DNA of 64,000 nucleotides from an uncultured Clostridia bacterium (GCA_934155625.1 CAKPHD010000001.1:932-64931); one strand, 5' to 3'. Counted from the stretch's first letter, positions 57,232 through 64,000 are shown. Notes: generated from the sequence alone by a model not told the origin. Program-made: numbers and translations.

Positions 57232-60200
57232 TTAAGGCGTAACTATAAATGTTTTCTTCAATGTTTGTACTAATGTGTTATTATAATATGCCTTAAATAC
57301 TATCTTGTATTCTCCTGTAATTATACCGTCTTTTATAGCATTTGCAAAATCTATTGTCTCTATGTTTTCTCCATCATCTGATGCTGAATGTGATTTTTTA
57401 TCCATAATGATATATTCTTTGCTTCCTTCTGCAGTTACCAAATCTTGACCTGTATATTCTTCTGGAGTTTTCCACTCAGTTCCTTTTATATTTTGTAAAT
57501 AATCTTTTAAATCTACTTGAGTATAATGTATTCCATTATAACTATTTGTTCCGTCTTCTGCAGTTGTATAAGTAGCATCACGTTTATATAATTCAACTCT
57601 TATATTTGTTTCTTCTGAAGGTTCTCCAACTTTAACTGTATAGTCAATTCCTTTTCCTCCATTTAGATTCAATTTAGTTTCCTTATTTACTATTGTGTTG
57701 CCTTGTTCTGAGTCTATTCCTAATCCAGCCGCACTTACATTTTTATTAATAAATGTTATATTTATTTCTTTTTCTTGTAATACTTCGCCATTATAGTAGC
57801 TTCCATCATTTGATGCGAAGAAATATATTTTAGCTTTGTATTGTCCAGCTGGTACATTGCTTTGACTTAGTGTTAATGTGTACTTATCATGTATACTAGA
57901 TAATCCGTCTGCAAGTGGAATTCTTATTACTCCATCTATTCCTGCAGAGTAAACTGATGAATCAGCCGTATCTATAAGTTTTAGATTTTGTAATTCTGGA
58001 GCTTTTACTCTCTCTCCACTTTCATGTACAATTTCTACTGCCATACCAATCTTCTTGTTATAATATTTTGTATCTCTAATATTTGAACCATCTGTTGCAT
58101 TTTGTTCTATTACAGAACCATCAAATGTAAATGGAATTGATAAGTCTTCAAATACTGAATATGATGTTTTACCATCATCTGTAACAACTGATTCTGACAT
58201 TATTGCATTTTTATTATATAAGTTATATTTTCTGTCTTCATCACCATTGTTGTATTTTCTTGCACCTGATGAATTTCTTAATTCTAGATATGTTTGTTCA
58301 GCTAATTTTTCAGTATTTAAATTAGAATTACTGAAGTCTATTGAAACATCATATTTTTCTAATACATATCCGCTTCCGCTTGAATCTGTATGATAATATT
58401 TGCTATTATCATTTGAATACTTACTACTTGTGCTTGTTCCACCCATATCTACGAACTTAGATAATTTGTACAAATATCTTGTACTTCCAGAAGCATTATC
58501 TGTTGCATCATAATCTGTATCACTAGCAACTTGATAATGGTAAACTTTATTTACATTATCACCTTGACCATAATCTCTTACAGTAATATTTGTTCCTGTA
58601 GGTAATGGTGTAGATGTTGATAATACTCTGTAATCACCTGATGCATAAATATTTGATTGTGCTCCAAGTCCAGCTTTGTATAATACATATGTCATATTTA
58701 CAGAACTATCTGTTGTGTAATTTAACTCTGTATTTGTACTATCTGTAAATCTTGGAATATAGCTTGCACTATTAGTTTTATTCAAATCTTCGTATAGAGA
58801 TTGAATATTAACTGCTATAACAACTTTAAATGTATTTCCAACACTTGCATCTTCACCTGTTCTAGCTTTTCCTGTTAATACAATATTTATATTTCCTAAA
58901 TCTTTAGTCTCAGAAACATTAACTGAATTGAATAACTTAAAGATTATTGAGCCTGGGTCAGAAGAATTATCAGTTCTATAAACTGTGTCTCCATCAAATG
59001 AACCATCAGAATTTGTATAAATATTTGTAGTTCCAGATTTCATCCATCCAGATTTAGATGTTTGCATTGTTAATGCAAAAGTATTATTAGCATTTTCGCT
59101 ATATGTTGGTACAGATAATTTATCTATTAAATTTGTACCTGTATCAAATGCGTTTGTGCTTACTCTATCAACTGTAAATGTTGTCTCATTGTAAGAAACA
59201 CTATCAACAAATTGTTTAAAGTTAAGTTCTAAGTCTGCCATTGAATATGTTGAATATGTTGATGCAATTAATGATGTATTGTAATTTACTATATCAGCTC
59301 CTATAATCCAATCATAATATGTTCCATGGTCTGTAACATCTATAACTTGAGGTACTGCACTTGAACCAGTAACAACATTTGTATAGAATCCATCAACTGT
59401 AATATCATGTTTTGATTTATGTCTTCCTTCTATATAAGTACCATTTGCAAACATGTTAGTTGTAGCTGCTCCAGAATAATTTGGTGCATATATATCATAC
59501 TCTTTAGTTCCTGTAGAACGATTTGTTCTGTACATTCCGAAGAATGCCATACCGCTTACATTTCCCCAAATATCTTGGTTAGACATATCGGCCAATTCGC
59601 CTTCTTGTTTTGCAAAGATTAAGTTTACACCTTCATAAGTATATAATCTATTATCAACATTTTTTGTAACTTTGCCATCAGCAATAGTTGCCGTAGCTTT
59701 TGTAGTTGAACCATCTATAGTTACTAAACTCTCGAATCCTCCAACCATGTTGAATCCTTTTTGAGTATATAATGTTGAATTATCAATTAAAGCTAAACCA
59801 TTTGTAATTCTATTTAAAGTATAACTTGTTTTCTTGTAGTAATTGTATTCATCTTGAGCACCTGTTAATTCTAAATATGAATTTTGAATAGATACTTTAC
59901 CTGTTCTTTGAATAGATGTCATCTTATAAGAACCTGATGAACTTCCAAAGTCTTTTATCATAACTGTTGAATTATCTTTTGAACCTGTTGAAGCATAATT
60001 TGTTCCTTTTCCAGCTCCAAAAATATTTCCAGTAAATGATATTGGAGAATCTGTTCCATTATCTAATGTAATATGTGTTTCTCCTTGTACAGTATTAGTA
60101 GAGTAATTTGTACTTGTTGAATCACCAGCACCATAGATATTACCTCCAATAGAGATATTTCCAGCTGTTAGTGTATTATCTGTTATTGCATCTTTACCAA

Positions 60201-63200: not shown

Positions 63201-64000
63201 CATCAGTTCCATCTCTTAAAATTTTAATATTTGATGATTCTAGATTACTCTTTGTTAAATCTAAGAATTTATCTTGACCTTTAACATTAAAACTAATTTT
63301 TCCATCAGATTCGAATTGAGAAGTATCTGTACTCATATATTTCCAAACTGGTTTTTTATTGTCTAAATCTACTAATATGTCTGTTGCATCATTTGTATGT
63401 CCGTCTAAGTCTCCAATCTTTTCAGCTGGAATACTAATTTTAAGTTGCTTAAATTCTTCTTCAAATTCATCTAATCTAACAACAAAATCATATCCATATT
63501 GTGTTTTAACAGGTGTTACTGTAATTGGTAAATCTGTTCTTTGTACATATTGTCCATTTCCATTTAGCTCGTAAATAGTAATATCATTTGCTGTTAACTT
63601 AGTATTAAAATCATAGTATCTATCAGTACCAGAAATTGTTACTGTTGCATATCTCTTAGCATAACTTATAAATTTCTCTTTATAGAATAATTTTGGTTTA
63701 ATAAAGTCTACTCTTATATAGTTATTTGCGTCATCACCATTGTCATTATCAACTATTATTTTTGTTTCAATGTTCGTATTTCCTGATGTATCTTTTACTT
63801 TTCCTGCTCCAATTACAAATTCTATTTTACCACTATGTCTTCTGAATATTTCGTTTTCTAGATTTTTATTAGCTTCGAAGTTAGACAATGTTAATGTATA
63901 TCTAATTCCATTTCCAGAACCATCTGTGATATCAGCTTTTGTTAATTTTTTAGTTATAGTATCTGTTACATCATAATCATCAACAAGTATTTGTTGTATA
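57232..64000 (-). CDS. Giant secreted beta-helix repeat protein (longer than 2250 aa; N-terminus beyond the window edge) with about 35 degenerate roughly 20-aa Gly-rich repeats (xxYGG[SG]... Pmp/POMP-like). No LPXTG or SLH anchor is visible.
   Basis: The ORF is open to position 64000. Repeats such as NIYGGS, VYGGG and IFGGS recur with about 20-aa periodicity. Confidence 0.8.
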   Translation of the reverse strand, partial: IQQILVDDYDVTDTITKKLTKADITDGSGNGIRYTLTLSNFEANKNLENEIFRRHSGKIEFVIGAGKVKDTSGNTNIETKIIVDNDNGDDANNYIRVDFIKPKLFYKEKFISYAKRYATVTISGTDRYYDFNTKLTANDITIYELNGNGQYVQRTDLPITVTPVKTQYGYDFVVRLDEFEEEFKQLKISIPAEKIGDLDGHTNDATDILVDLDNKKPVWKYMSTDTSQFESDGKISFNVKGQDKFLDLTKSNLESSNIKILRDGTDVTNADNIKVDYLSSDETEISKSYKIDVSGLTEIGTYSLVLEKETLVDEFNNKSATTTISFSKSAISSNTDNYTNVTYHATPDFEQTHQAYVHELMSVNTTGTNAESTTYRASSIGEIYNNGNNTLFAEPFKYEGGKQSAYSFKGWAVANEKGFSADNAKVYGLYEDIPNTVTHLNAVWQEATVIFVSKSGNNSNDGQSPTTPVKDLSTAYSKLNTNGTDATNIIVIMDKVEWNSSDTLTGNATITSLYAGVDYRNDGAELQISSNMNVSGDIIFDNIKLYSSSTTVSDGSDYLAAGNYSNVLVTNYGDVILGRGVSTPDGKYTFGAVVGGNYKEETTKNTIGLHTVIVEAGKYNNIIVGSSLNTPSTSRKYVTHQVIIGTMKESAISRNSKVTITGYLSMGELEDRCYPYNRNGSQDTTLGYTRYYAITKMYSGTFTGEHKFTKASEDASIYLRSINGFDDGKVQLDMFGGDVTGNIYGGARMATTKDKNDANQPDANILNFYGGQITGNVFGHGDNDASAGNSVITLQGCVGITGNVFGGSNATTVASGKVTGNTNITVNSAITIDGNIYGGSNGVINGITVNVNTGLITGNTNITLNVGLVKGDIFGGGYNCGATGRANINMNNGQVTGSIYGGAYQNQVQTETNVNIFGGTVNDVYGGTVLTTAFQLNADNSGQNTNIVIGNKDLNTTPTVNGSIYGSGKYDRVGTAEIRLVKCATTPTVYGGSDSAGMTTATNIYLNDMTASTIYGGSNTDGTMTTANIYLQSGTVTDVYGGGYGGTTTTANVNLEGTATVTSIFGGSNAQGSVQTSNVELKSGNLTNVYGGGNSASVGTANVTLDGITIGSIHGGSKNAGMTTNTNVVLNSGTVNSVYGAGYNIGATNTKVAQNGATVTNIYGGSEGNNSSETTNSTVNINSATAENVYGGNAGKGTVKYATINITGASTITRKLYGGGYQSDIGKSGSTSSAGSATINIAGGTINNDVVGGSENGTVYGTTNINIGKDAITDNTLTAGNISIGGNIYGAGDSTSTNYSTNTVQGETHITLDNGTDSPISFTGNIFGAGKGTNYASTGSKDNSTVMIKDFGSSSGSYKMTSIQRTGKVSIQNSYLELTGAQDEYNYYKKTSYTLNRITNGLALIDNSTLYTQKGFNMVGGFESLVTIDGSTTKATATIADGKVTKNVDNRLYTYEGVNLIFAKQEGELADMSNQDIWGNVSGMAFFGMYRTNRSTGTKEYDIYAPNYSGAATTNMFANGTYIEGRHKSKHDITVDGFYTNVVTGSSAVPQVIDVTDHGTYYDWIIGADIVNYNTSLIASTYSTYSMADLELNFKQFVDSVSYNETTFTVDRVSTNAFDTGTNLIDKLSVPTYSENANNTFALTMQTSKSGWMKSGTTNIYTNSDGSFDGDTVYRTDNSSDPGSIIFKLFNSVNVSETKDLGNINIVLTGKARTGEDASVGNTFKVVIAVNIQSLYEDLNKTNSASYIPRFTDSTNTELNYTTDSSVNMTYVLYKAGLGAQSNIYASGDYRVLSTSTPLPTGTNITVRDYGQGDNVNKVYHYQVASDTDYDATDNASGSTRYLYKLSKFVDMGGTSTSSKYSNDNSKYYHTDSSGSGYVLEKYDVSIDFSNSNLNTEKLAEQTYLELRNSSGARKYNNGDEDRKYNLYNKNAIMSESVVTDDGKTSYSVFEDLSIPFTFDGSVIEQNATDGSNIRDTKYYNKKIGMAVEIVHESGERVKAPELQNLKLIDTADSSVYSAGIDGVIRIPLADGLSSIHDKYTLTLSQSNVPAGQYKAKIYFFASNDGSYYNGEVLQEKEINITFINKNVSAAGLGIDSEQGNTIVNKETKLNLNGGKGIDYTVKVGEPSEETNIRVELYKRDATYTTAEDGTNSYNGIHYTQVDLKDYLQNIKGTEWKTPEEYTGQDLVTAEGSKEYIIMDKKSHSASDDGENIETIDFANAIKDGIITGEYKIVFKAYYNNTLVQTLKKTFIVTP

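What the first reader, a model, noticed from the sequence alone, without database searches (positions are those of the whole stretch)
57232..64000. Beta-helix repeat protein longer than 2250 aa heads the locus
About 35 degenerate roughly 20-residue repeats centred on [IVF][YFH]GG[SGA] (Pmp/POMP-like parallel beta-helix) are followed by an 800-aa C-terminal region rich in Tyr/Asn/Thr. No LPXTG or SLH anchor is visible. The ORF runs off the window, so the N-terminus and any signal peptide are unseen. It could be the cell-surface platform or a cargo adhesin for the TasA-like fibres, or a substrate of the Arn-like glycosylation cluster at 21.9-27.2 kb.
Basis: seen in the sequence. Interest (0 to 1): 0.55.

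Follow-up and report, generated by a model that had tools for sequence, protein, structure and literature searches.

The report
Giant gut-bacterial beta-helix surface protein
The window holds the last 2,255 residues of a giant secreted protein (called at 7,200-8,600 residues on near-identical contigs) from an uncultured human-gut Clostridia bacterium; its conserved beta-helix and Ig-like tail define an unannotated family that nearly always sits next to a cluster of SipW-type signal peptidases and small secreted proteins.

Summary
The ORF is real. It runs on the minus strand with its stop at 57232-57234 and stays open to the window edge, giving 2,255 codons. On contigs 99% identical in DNA, the same gene is called at 7,227 and 8,555 aa, so the window shows only its C-terminal part.

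The GG repeats are far above chance, with 12 strict matches against 0.12 expected. There are about 21-24 recognisable copies with a 25-residue period, not 35 copies of 20 residues.

AlphaFold models are confident:
- A right-handed beta-helix spans about aa 485-1455 (pLDDT 85.7).
- About four or five Ig-like beta-sandwich domains follow (pLDDT 83.9). They resemble the stalks of Gram-positive adhesins.

No Pfam, NCBIfam or PDB sequence match exists. The Pmp motifs and profiles are absent, so this is not a Pmp/POMP protein.

Full-length relatives start with a basic then hydrophobic signal or anchor. The family is small, at 224 clusters among 1.84 billion representative proteins. All members come from uncultured gut or rumen Bacillota.

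Most relatives lie beside SipW-type peptidases, paralogous small secreted proteins and a membrane P-loop ATPase.

The best reading is a very long surface fibril or adhesin processed by this SipW-centred cluster. No evidence ties it to the Arn-like cluster.

The parts
57232..64000 (-). 3' part of the giant gene: 2,255 codons plus a TAA stop, open at the window edge.
   Evidence: Translation without an internal stop. Contigs 99% identical in DNA call the same gene at 7,227 and 8,555 aa.
62965..63999 (-). aa 1-345: tandem beta-rich modules of about 130 aa, the end of the long extender region.
   Evidence: Multiple internal BLAST matches to repeated modules in DUF285-containing giant proteins. The region upstream in L005 matches DUF285 proteins of 1,000-1,800 aa.
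62548..62964 (-). aa 346-484: small beta domain with the conserved motif ELxxNPF..P...YGFxGW...LxAxW. This is the start of the module conserved across the whole family.
   Evidence: Alignment A1 has invariant N389, G410 and W411. The model shows beta strands. It gives no Pfam hit, although by recollection it looks like the Listeria-Bacteroides repeat.
59635..62547 (-). aa 485-1455: right-handed parallel beta-helix of about 970 aa.
   Evidence: AlphaFold2 model mb80b5c4f58bf has pLDDT 85.7 and pTM 0.80. The helix continues into the first ~115 residues of model m3ce7c38fb271. The top-ranked Foldseek PDB matches are mostly beta-helix proteins such as EtpA, Hbp, EspC, SepA, VacA and pectate lyase, but the best E-value is only 0.065.
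59986..61782 (-). aa 740-1338: the recognisable GG repeats, consensus T-N-V-x-L-x-x-G-T-V-T-N-[IV]-[YF]-G-G-[SG]-N, period 25 aa.
   Evidence: 12 strict motif hits against 0.12 expected, and 24 loose hits. 21 hits to the repeat HMM, nine of them consecutive and near-perfect at aa 977-1201.
57235..59634 (-). aa 1456-2255: C-terminal array of about four or five Ig-like beta-sandwich domains. In every relative it lies at the very C-terminus.
   Evidence: Model m3ce7c38fb271 has pLDDT 83.9 and is all-beta. Foldseek PDB finds PrgB Ig-like domains at E=3e-15, antigen I/II C-domains, CfaB pilin and RbmA.
41812..57129 (-). Co-directional downstream cluster that travels with the giant gene.
- Frameshifted ~290-aa gene: 56262-57129.
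- SipW-type signal peptidases: 54754-55581, 53604-54128, 48608-49198, 45585-46193, 44847-45569.
- Paralogous small secreted proteins: 54112-54753, 53036-53620, 47986-48624, 44114-44812, 43183-43968, 41812-43089.
- Predicted cytoplasmic or membrane set: 51912-52952, 50355-51908 (transmembrane segment plus Walker A), 49201-50325 (DUF2357), 46215-47834.
   Evidence: The 174-aa protein scores 63.8 bits on TIGR02228, above the 51.85 cutoff. Of 83 related loci, 65-75 carry homologs of the peptidases, g213/g212, g517, g374 and g539 within 10 kb. Paralogy of the small proteins was shown by hhalign. Two reverse look-ups landed next to giant genes.
41771..41803 (-). Intrinsic terminator closing the cluster: an 11-bp stem with one mismatch, followed by a T run.
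   Evidence: Read directly from the sequence. The next gene has its own TTGACA-17-TATAAT promoter and is not syntenic, being found in 0 of 83 loci.

Best explanation
The region is the C-terminal quarter to third of a single giant secreted protein of an uncultured, low-GC (29%) human-gut Clostridia bacterium.

Inferred full architecture:
- an N-terminal basic and hydrophobic signal peptide or membrane anchor;
- DUF285 (BspA-type leucine-rich-repeat-like) repeats;
- dozens of Ig-like extender modules of about 130 aa;
- the conserved family core, which is a small YGFxGW beta domain, a right-handed beta-helix of about 970 aa built largely of 25-residue 'xYGGxN' coils, and four or five Ig-like beta-sandwich domains that end the protein.

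Most likely mode of action (inferred):
1. The protein is exported by Sec.
2. Its signal is handled by one of the five SipW-type signal peptidases encoded just downstream.
3. It forms a surface fibril more than 100 nm long. This is my own rough estimate from the residue and domain counts, not a tool result.
4. The rigid beta-helix and Ig-like tail sit at the distal end. They bind a ligand, or dock onto or organise the small secreted paralogs of the same cluster, much as TapA or BsaC accompany TasA or BsaA.

Shown: the ORF, the repeats, the predicted folds, the absence of known anchors, the N-terminal signals in full-length relatives, the family's restricted distribution and the synteny.

Inferred: surface location, processing by SipW paralogs, adhesion or scaffold function, and the topology.
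For: - The ORF is open through 2,255 codons. In 99%-identical contigs it continues upstream and is called at 7,227 and 8,555 aa, with a DUF285 hit.
- In all 14 closer-clade genomes tested (L010-L030; 59-77% best-segment identity), the frame stays open for more than 5,200 aa.
- Full-length relatives of 4,628-5,693 aa and about 2,400-3,100 aa begin with K/R residues followed by a hydrophobic run. This holds for 81 of 120 long members.
- Both structure models are confident.
- The C-terminal array resembles Gram-positive adhesin stalks and pilins: PrgB at E=3e-15, antigen I/II and CfaB.
- The top-ranked helix matches are mostly beta-helical adhesins, passenger domains or lyases.
- Synteny with SipW-type peptidases and small secreted paralogs holds in 65-75 of 83 loci, and in 2 of 2 reverse look-ups.
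- One peptidase passes the TIGR02228 cutoff.
- Nine of 17 members of the g425 family hit the SipW-cognate signal model TIGR04088, below its cutoff.
- No terminator-like site was found in the scan of 56000-57400, which covers the gap between the giant gene and the next gene.
- Known precedent: sipW operons that carry a large accessory protein, such as BsaC and TapA (PMC11580942, PMC10151520).
Against: - No experimental data exist, and all hosts are uncultured.
- The N-terminus of the window's own gene was not retrieved. The signal is inferred from relatives that are 69-79% identical.
- Whether the N-terminal segment is cleaved or kept as an anchor is unknown.
- The small neighbours show no sequence-level match to TasA or camelysin.
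- They also show no profile-profile similarity to the giant protein, so co-assembly is conjecture.
- The cluster contains a membrane P-loop ATPase that matches a candidate phage-defence model (PDC-M26A). No known fibre system explains this.
- Foldseek E-values for the helix are not significant.
Confidence: 0.55

Rival explanations
1. The beta-helix is an enzyme or lectin, such as a polysaccharide lyase, glycosidase or depolymerase, held on a long stalk. Its role would be to degrade or bind host mucin or dietary glycans rather than to act as a structural adhesin.
For: - The weak structural neighbours include pectate lyase, rhamnogalacturonan lyase and GH136 lacto-N-biosidases, and phage tailspike-like proteins.
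- The first third of the helix keeps nearly invariant polar residues across 30%-identical relatives: D537, R579, E615, N655 and E713.
- The organism lives in the gut.
Against: - None of these matches is significant (E at least 0.8 for the enzymes), and there are no Pfam or CAZy-type hits.
- The regular 25-residue GG coils lack the loops and insertions typical of active-site clefts.
- Conservation is strongest at the helix end and in the first C-terminal domains, aa 1346-1545.
Confidence: 0.15
2. The giant protein is itself the main structural element of a cell-envelope layer or sheath, that is an S-layer-like coat or spacer, and not a ligand-binding adhesin. The small secreted proteins would then be accessory, anchoring or capping factors.
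For: - It has the same secretion features, great length, a rigid helix and Ig-like arrays.
- The core module is conserved rather than hypervariable.
- The system is widespread among these lineages (288 matching stretches in species-representative genomes), and some genomes hold two copies.
Against: - No SLH, CWB2 or other wall-binding module is present.
- Length varies greatly between close strains, at 4,628, 7,227 and 8,555 aa. This is more typical of adhesin extenders.
Confidence: 0.2
3. It is a chlamydial-type polymorphic membrane protein or autotransporter-like passenger, which is the family analogy proposed by the first reader.
For: It has repeats centred on GG and a predicted beta-helix. 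Autotransporter passengers are among the weak structural matches.
Against: - TIGR01376 and PF02415 give no hit even at E up to 1.
- There are no GGA[ILV] motifs and only 5 FxxN.
- The C-terminus is an Ig-like array, not a beta-barrel.
- The hosts are Bacillota, and one related locus lies next to the sporulation genes YabP and YqfD.
Confidence: 0.02
4. It is a polymorphic-toxin or contact-dependent-inhibition filament, in which a beta-helical stalk delivers a C-terminal toxin and immunity genes lie downstream.
For: It is a giant beta-helix protein followed by several small ORFs.
Against: - The C-terminus is conserved end to end in all relatives and is predicted to be Ig-like, not a variable toxin.
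- The downstream small proteins are conserved, paralogous and carry signal or transmembrane segments, so they are not cytoplasmic immunity proteins.
Confidence: 0.03
5. It is a gene fragment, a pseudogene or an assembly artefact of repeats.
For: - In one related contig (L092) the gene is called as three ORFs of 2,700, 108 and 1,719 aa.
- The neighbouring ~290-aa gene is frameshifted in this species.
- Gene calls differ between contigs, at 7,227 and 8,555 aa.
Against: - The frame is open in six independent contigs of the same species and in all 14 closer-clade genomes tested.
- Intact full-length relatives exist.
- Purifying conservation is seen along the whole module.
- There is no DNA-level repeat that would mislead assembly within the window part.
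Confidence: 0.04

Closest known systems
TasA/TapA/SipW of Bacillus subtilis and SipW-BsaA-BsaB-BsaC of Clostridium perfringens (PMC9674648, PMC10151520, PMC11580942)
   Same: - The operon logic is shared: an archaeal/ER-type (SipW-type) signal peptidase is encoded with small secreted beta-rich proteins and a larger accessory secreted protein.
- The N-termini of the small proteins end in an aromatic motif (STYAWFTAN, ETYAKY) like the SipW-cognate signal class. The TIGR04088 hits are sub-threshold.
   Different: - There are five peptidase paralogs instead of one.
- At least six paralogous small proteins show no detectable Peptidase_M73 or TasA sequence similarity.
- The accessory protein is 30-100 times larger and beta-helical.
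- The cluster has additional membrane P-loop ATPase, DUF2357 and coiled-coil genes.
Giant repetitive adhesins with an anchor, extender and distal ligand-binding layout (RTX adhesins such as MpIBP, LapA and SiiE; Ebh of Staphylococcus). The layouts of these proteins are recalled from my own knowledge.
   Same: - The design is shared: a terminal anchor, a very long array of Ig-like extender modules whose number varies between strains, and a distal region that includes a beta-helix.
- The beta-helical antifreeze protein 3p4g and a 'large adhesion protein' extender (6xi3) are among the structural matches.
   Different: - There are no RTX repeats and no T1SS signal.
- The host is monoderm, with a Sec-type N-terminal signal.
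- There is no sequence similarity.
Beta-helical secreted adhesins and passenger domains of Proteobacteria (EtpA, HMW1, Hbp, EspC, VacA) and chlamydial Pmp proteins
   Same: The fold class is the same, a right-handed parallel beta-helix used as a rigid extracellular rod. EtpA is the best PDB match.
   Different: - The match is not significant (E=0.065).
- There is no TPS domain, no autotransporter barrel and no GGA[ILV]/FxxN motifs.
- The coil motif differs: xYGGxN with a 25-residue period.
Ig-like stalk domains of Gram-positive adhesins (PrgB, antigen I/II C-domains of BspA, SpaP and SspB)
   Same: The C-terminal 800 aa is predicted to be a tandem array of beta-sandwiches that aligns with these stalks, with E-values from 3e-15 to 1e-7.
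   Different: - TM-scores are low, at 0.19-0.26 overall.
- There is no LPXTG anchor.
- Only one conserved Lys (K2223) is present, so a general set of intradomain isopeptide bonds is unlikely.
- Here the array is the extreme C-terminus.
DUF285 (PF03382) surface proteins of Mollicutes and Bacillota
   Same: The upstream part of the gene, seen in same-species contigs and in full-length relatives, carries DUF285 repeats and the same extender modules as many DUF285 proteins of 1,000-1,800 aa.
   Different: Those proteins lack the beta-helix and C-terminal module. The part inside the window has no DUF285.

Membership tests
Chlamydial Pmp / POMP repeat family (TIGR01376, PF02415) | Match to the POMP repeat profiles. 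| tested here: not met
   No NCBIfam or Pfam hit at E up to 1.
Chlamydial Pmp / POMP repeat family (TIGR01376, PF02415) | Multiple GGA[ILV] and FxxN tetrapeptide motifs. | tested here: not met
   GGA[ILV] occurs 0 times and FxxN 5 times in 2,255 aa.
Chlamydial Pmp / POMP repeat family (TIGR01376, PF02415) | C-terminal autotransporter beta-barrel in an outer-membrane-bearing host. | tested here: not met
   The C-terminus is modelled as Ig-like sandwiches, and there is no Pfam autotransporter hit. The hosts are Bacillota MAGs.
Right-handed parallel beta-helix (fold class) | Stacked coils of about 22-25 residues forming a continuous solenoid. | tested here: met
   The AlphaFold2 model has pLDDT 85.7 and pTM 0.80, and the sequence period is 25 residues. 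The top-ranked PDB neighbours are mostly beta-helices, but none is significant, with a best E of 0.065.
Sortase-anchored (LPXTG) or SLH-anchored Gram-positive surface proteins | A C-terminal LPXTG motif with a hydrophobic segment and basic tail, or SLH domains. | tested here: not met
   No LPXT[GAS] or NPXTG motif. No Gram_pos_anchor or SLH Pfam hit. The protein ends ...TLKKTFIVTP.
SipW/TasA-type fibre system (as an accessory component) | An adjacent archaeal/ER-type signal peptidase I (SipW type). | tested here: met
   The protein at 53604-54128 scores 63.8 bits on TIGR02228, above the 51.85 cutoff. Four further S24/S26-like paralogs are present. This arrangement is conserved in 68-73 of 83 loci.
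SipW/TasA-type fibre system (as an accessory component) | Partner subunits of the TasA/camelysin (Peptidase_M73) family. | tested here: not met
   - No PF12389 hit for the neighbours at E up to 0.01, nor for any of the 17 g425-family members scanned individually at E up to 0.1.
- Profile searches of PDB with alignments A4 and A5 find no TasA.
SipW/TasA-type fibre system (as an accessory component) | A SipW-cognate signal peptide (TIGR04088) on the substrates. | tested here: inconclusive
   - Nine of 17 g425-family members hit TIGR04088. The best E-value is 0.0018, and the window protein scores 13.9 bits, below the cutoff of 19.
- Only a subset of giant-protein N-termini show a similar T[YF]SE[KYF] motif.
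DUF285 (PF03382) giant surface proteins | PF03382 repeats. | tested here: met
   They are absent from the window part. They are present in the same-species gene call (L001) and in the full-length relatives P0049 and P0051.
RTX/T1SS giant adhesins | RTX nonapeptide repeats and a C-terminal T1SS signal. | tested here: not met
   No HemolysinCabind or other Pfam hit. The resemblance is in layout only.

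The most novel reading that the evidence does not exclude
The giant protein is the signature component of a previously undescribed surface-fibre or adhesion apparatus that depends on SipW-type peptidases. This apparatus would belong to uncultured, small-genome gut and rumen Bacillota.

In this reading, several dedicated signal peptidase paralogs process a set of paralogous small subunits together with the giant beta-helix protein. A membrane-anchored McrB-like P-loop ATPase with a DUF2357 partner would take part in assembly or regulation. The giant protein would form the tip or shaft that contacts host mucus, particles or other cells.
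Probability: 0.3. Interest if true: 0.75.

Novelty: new variant of a known kind. Interest (0 to 1): 0.55.

Why it matters
Proteins of 7,000-8,500 residues are rare in bacteria. This one belongs to uncultured gut Clostridia recovered in Hadza, Nepali, Brazilian and other human gut samples, and in chickens, rabbits and ruminants.

The core module has no Pfam, NCBIfam or PDB sequence match, and none of the relatives found in the protein search carries a name. Even so, relatives were found at 288 stretches in a collection of one genome per species, almost always next to the same unusual gene cluster.

If the protein is the adhesin or scaffold of a new SipW-dependent surface apparatus, it would explain how these small-genome, unculturable organisms attach in the gut. 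It would also give a handle, as an antigen or enrichment target, for isolating them, and would extend TasA/SipW-type assembly well beyond biofilm matrices.

Tried and rejected
- **Sequence libraries.** Pfam, NCBIfam, PADLOC and PDB sequence searches of the 2,255-aa fragment found nothing.
- **Neighbours as TasA.** PDB profile searches, Pfam and the 5.8-billion-protein search returned no TasA or camelysin relation. The 120 best hits listed had no Pfam domain, and the only names given were 'hypothetical protein'.
- **Shared domains.** hhalign of every small-protein family against the giant module found no shared domain, with all probabilities below 1%.
- **This species' own N-terminus.** The third protein search, using the upstream 1,043 aa, returned only other DUF285 proteins. 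The look-up of P0016 reached a contig start 545 nt upstream of the start codon. The signal is therefore inferred from relatives.
- **TANB77 pilin cluster (PMC11680825).** This is a Tad-type system and is unrelated.
- **Other literature searches.** They found no description of this family or cluster.
- **RNA families.** No Rfam family is present at 41-64 kb.
- **Rejected readings.** The polymorphic-toxin and Pmp readings were rejected on the C-terminal conservation and the motif and profile tests.

Full report
**Numbering.** Residue numbers are those of the translation of window:57235-63999:-.

**Observation**

On the minus strand, the frame from 63999 down to the TAA stop at 57232-57234 has 2,255 sense codons and no internal stop. 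The ORF list shows it as 2,218 aa from the first TTG.

The motif [IVF][YFH]GG[SGA] occurs 12 times, against 0.12 expected from shuffles. A looser form occurs 24 times between aa 593 and 1330. An HMM built from the clearest copies finds 21 copies at aa 740-1338, including nine consecutive near-perfect 25-residue units at aa 977-1201.

The repeat is therefore real. It has a 25-residue period and about 21-24 recognisable copies, not about 35 copies of 20 residues. No tandem repeat exists at the DNA level, so the repeats are old.

The last 915 aa are enriched in Tyr, Asn, Thr and Ser compared with housekeeping proteins of the same window. There is no LPXTG motif and no SLH domain.

**What the visible part is made of**

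BLAST against relatives and two AlphaFold2 models divide the fragment as follows.

| Residues | Content | Evidence |
|---|---|---|
| 1-345 | Tandem modules of about 130 aa, also repeated many times in DUF285 giant proteins | |
| 346-484 | Small beta domain with an invariant YGFxGW-type motif; the module shared by the whole family starts here | |
| about 485-1455 | Right-handed beta-helix (model pLDDT 85.7, pTM 0.80) | |
| 1456-2255 | Four or five beta-sandwich domains (model pLDDT 83.9) | |

- The C-terminal array aligns with Ig-like stalks of Gram-positive adhesins and with pilins. Matches include PrgB at E=3e-15, antigen I/II C-domains, CfaB and RbmA.
- The helix has no significant PDB neighbour. 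Its top-ranked weak hits are mostly beta-helices, led by EtpA at E=0.065 and followed by Hbp, EspC, SepA, VacA, HMW1, pectate lyase and GH136 enzymes. The viral library gave nothing specific.
- At sequence level there is no Pfam, NCBIfam, PADLOC or PDB match at all.

**The whole gene**

A neighbouring 112-aa protein led to six gut-metagenome contigs that are about 99% identical in DNA to the window, so they come from the same species. Most are from Hadza samples. In these contigs the frame continues for at least 1,043 more codons. The gene is called at 7,227 aa (with a DUF285 hit) and at 8,555 aa, in both cases well inside the contig.

In all 14 closer-clade genomes tested (59-77% best-segment identity) the frame stays open for more than 5,200 aa.

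Full-length relatives are 4,628-5,693 aa in the closer clades and about 2,400-3,100 aa elsewhere. They begin with a K/R-rich stretch followed by about 15-25 hydrophobic residues. This holds for 81 of 120 long members, and the rest look truncated.

I could not retrieve the N-terminus of this species itself.

**Family and hosts**

A full HMMER scan of 1.84 billion representative proteins with the C-terminal 915 aa finds only 224 clusters. In these the module always lies at the protein's C-terminus.

In a collection of one genome per species, 288 stretches encode a relative. The 80 loci that were listed all come from uncultured gut or rumen genomes. Most are labelled Clostridia, Bacilli, Erysipelotrichaceae, Mollicutes or Tenericutes, and a few bins carry other labels. 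One is a complete 1.55-Mb chromosome. No relative found in the protein search carries a name.

**Surroundings**

The giant gene is the first gene of a co-directional cluster that ends at an intrinsic terminator after 41812. The cluster contains:
- five SipW-type signal peptidases, one of which scores above the TIGR02228 cutoff;
- at least six paralogous small proteins with an N-terminal hydrophobic segment ending in STYAWFTAN-like or ETYAKY-like motifs;
- a membrane protein with a Walker A motif, which matches PADLOC candidate PDC-M26A at E=2.5e-35;
- a DUF2357 protein and two predicted soluble proteins.

Homologs of these genes lie within 10 kb of the giant-gene relative in 65-75 of 83 loci, even where the giant proteins share only about 30% identity and the gene order is shuffled. 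Two look-ups that started from homologs of the 425-aa protein both landed next to giant genes of about 2,800 aa.

The 'TasA-like' label for the small proteins could not be confirmed by sequence. There is no Peptidase_M73 hit and no PDB TasA hit. Nine of 17 family members hit the SipW-cognate signal model, but below its cutoff. No profile-level similarity links the giant module to the small proteins.

**Interpretation**

The most likely reading is a very long, Sec-exported surface fibril. It has an N-terminal signal or anchor, then DUF285 repeats and a variable number of extender modules. The conserved beta-helix and Ig-like array form the distal working end. Its processing, and probably its function, are tied to the SipW-centred cluster.

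The layout parallels giant RTX adhesins, which have an anchor, an extender and a distal beta-helix or ligand module. The operon logic parallels sipW-tasA-tapA and sipW-bsaA-bsaB-bsaC (PMC10151520, PMC11580942). Surface location, cleavage, adhesion and co-assembly are all inferences.

Rivals:
- an enzymatic or lectin helix, suggested by the conserved residues D537, R579, E615, N655 and E713;
- an envelope-layer or sheath role;
- a Pmp-type protein, rejected because the profiles, motifs and barrel are all absent;
- a toxin-delivery filament, rejected because the C-terminus is conserved;
- a pseudogene, unlikely, although one related contig shows the gene in three pieces.

The Arn-like cluster at 21.9-27.2 kb is real. 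It holds two EamA half-transporters, an ATP-grasp enzyme, a DegT aminotransferase, a DUF2142 membrane protein and a GT2 glycosyltransferase. It lies 30 kb away, beyond UvrA and RNase J, and nothing connects it to this protein.

**Novelty and score**

The kind of protein is known: a giant repetitive surface protein with a beta-helix and Ig-like domains. This family is unannotated, lacks every known Gram-positive anchor, and is coupled to an undescribed multi-peptidase cluster.

I rate it a new variant of a known kind, with interest 0.55. The most novel reading not excluded is a new SipW-dependent surface apparatus, with probability about 0.3.

Noticed in passing
window 57170-57191, 52979-53036 (two copies), 41728-41749, 33265-33359 (three copies), 20105-20126, 15897-15918, 35835-35856: A GC-rich 22-nt element, GGTACCGCAAAGAACCGGTCCC, occurs 10 times (up to 3 mismatches) in this 29%-GC window, against 0 expected. 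All the copies that were inspected lie in intergenic gaps, including the gap right after the giant gene's stop. Exact copies occur only in same-species contigs, and there is no Rfam match at 41-64 kb. It may be a species-specific REP-like or RNA-processing element.
   Followed up: partly
window 56262-57129 (-): The 112-aa and 149-aa ORFs just downstream of the giant gene are the two halves of a single ~290-aa gene that is intact in related species. A frameshift near 56,800 splits it here, and all 99%-identical contigs show the same split. It is either a pseudogene or a programmed frameshift.
   Followed up: partly
window 44847-45569, 45585-46193, 48608-49198, 53604-54128, 54754-55581 (-): One cluster holds five paralogous SipW-type (archaeal/ER-type) signal peptidases. 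One carries a long K/T/A-rich tail (54754-55581) and one a poly-acidic tail (44847-45569).
   Followed up: partly
window 49201-51908 (-): A 517-aa protein with an N-terminal transmembrane segment and a Walker A motif (GISGTGKT) matches PADLOC candidate defence model PDC-M26A at E=2.5e-35. It is followed by a DUF2357 (McrC-N-like) protein. This McrBC-like pair is conserved inside the secretion cluster in 65 of 83 related loci.
   Followed up: partly
window 41059-41583 (-), promoter about 41630-41660: A 174-aa protein has tandem 7-residue 'KRWEEN(D/N)' repeats and its own perfect TTGACA-17-TATAAT promoter. It is not part of the conserved cluster, being found in 0 of 83 loci.
   Followed up: no
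L018 and L024 (MAG CAKPGU01); L028 and L032 (Clostridium sp. 28_12, MNRR01): Some genomes carry two separate copies of the giant-gene system.
   Followed up: no
L092:545-14394: In a relative that is 79% identical, the giant gene is called as three ORFs of 2,700, 108 and 1,719 aa. An intact version of 4,628 aa (P0049) exists elsewhere. This is either strain-level disruption or an assembly error.
   Followed up: no
window 21893-27247 (-): The Arn-like cluster holds two EamA half-transporters, an ATP-grasp enzyme, a DegT aminotransferase, a DUF2142 membrane protein and a GT2 glycosyltransferase. By analogy with Arn-type pathways it may modify a lipid-linked sugar or wall polymer, which was not tested. 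It is separated from the giant-gene cluster by housekeeping genes.
   Followed up: partly
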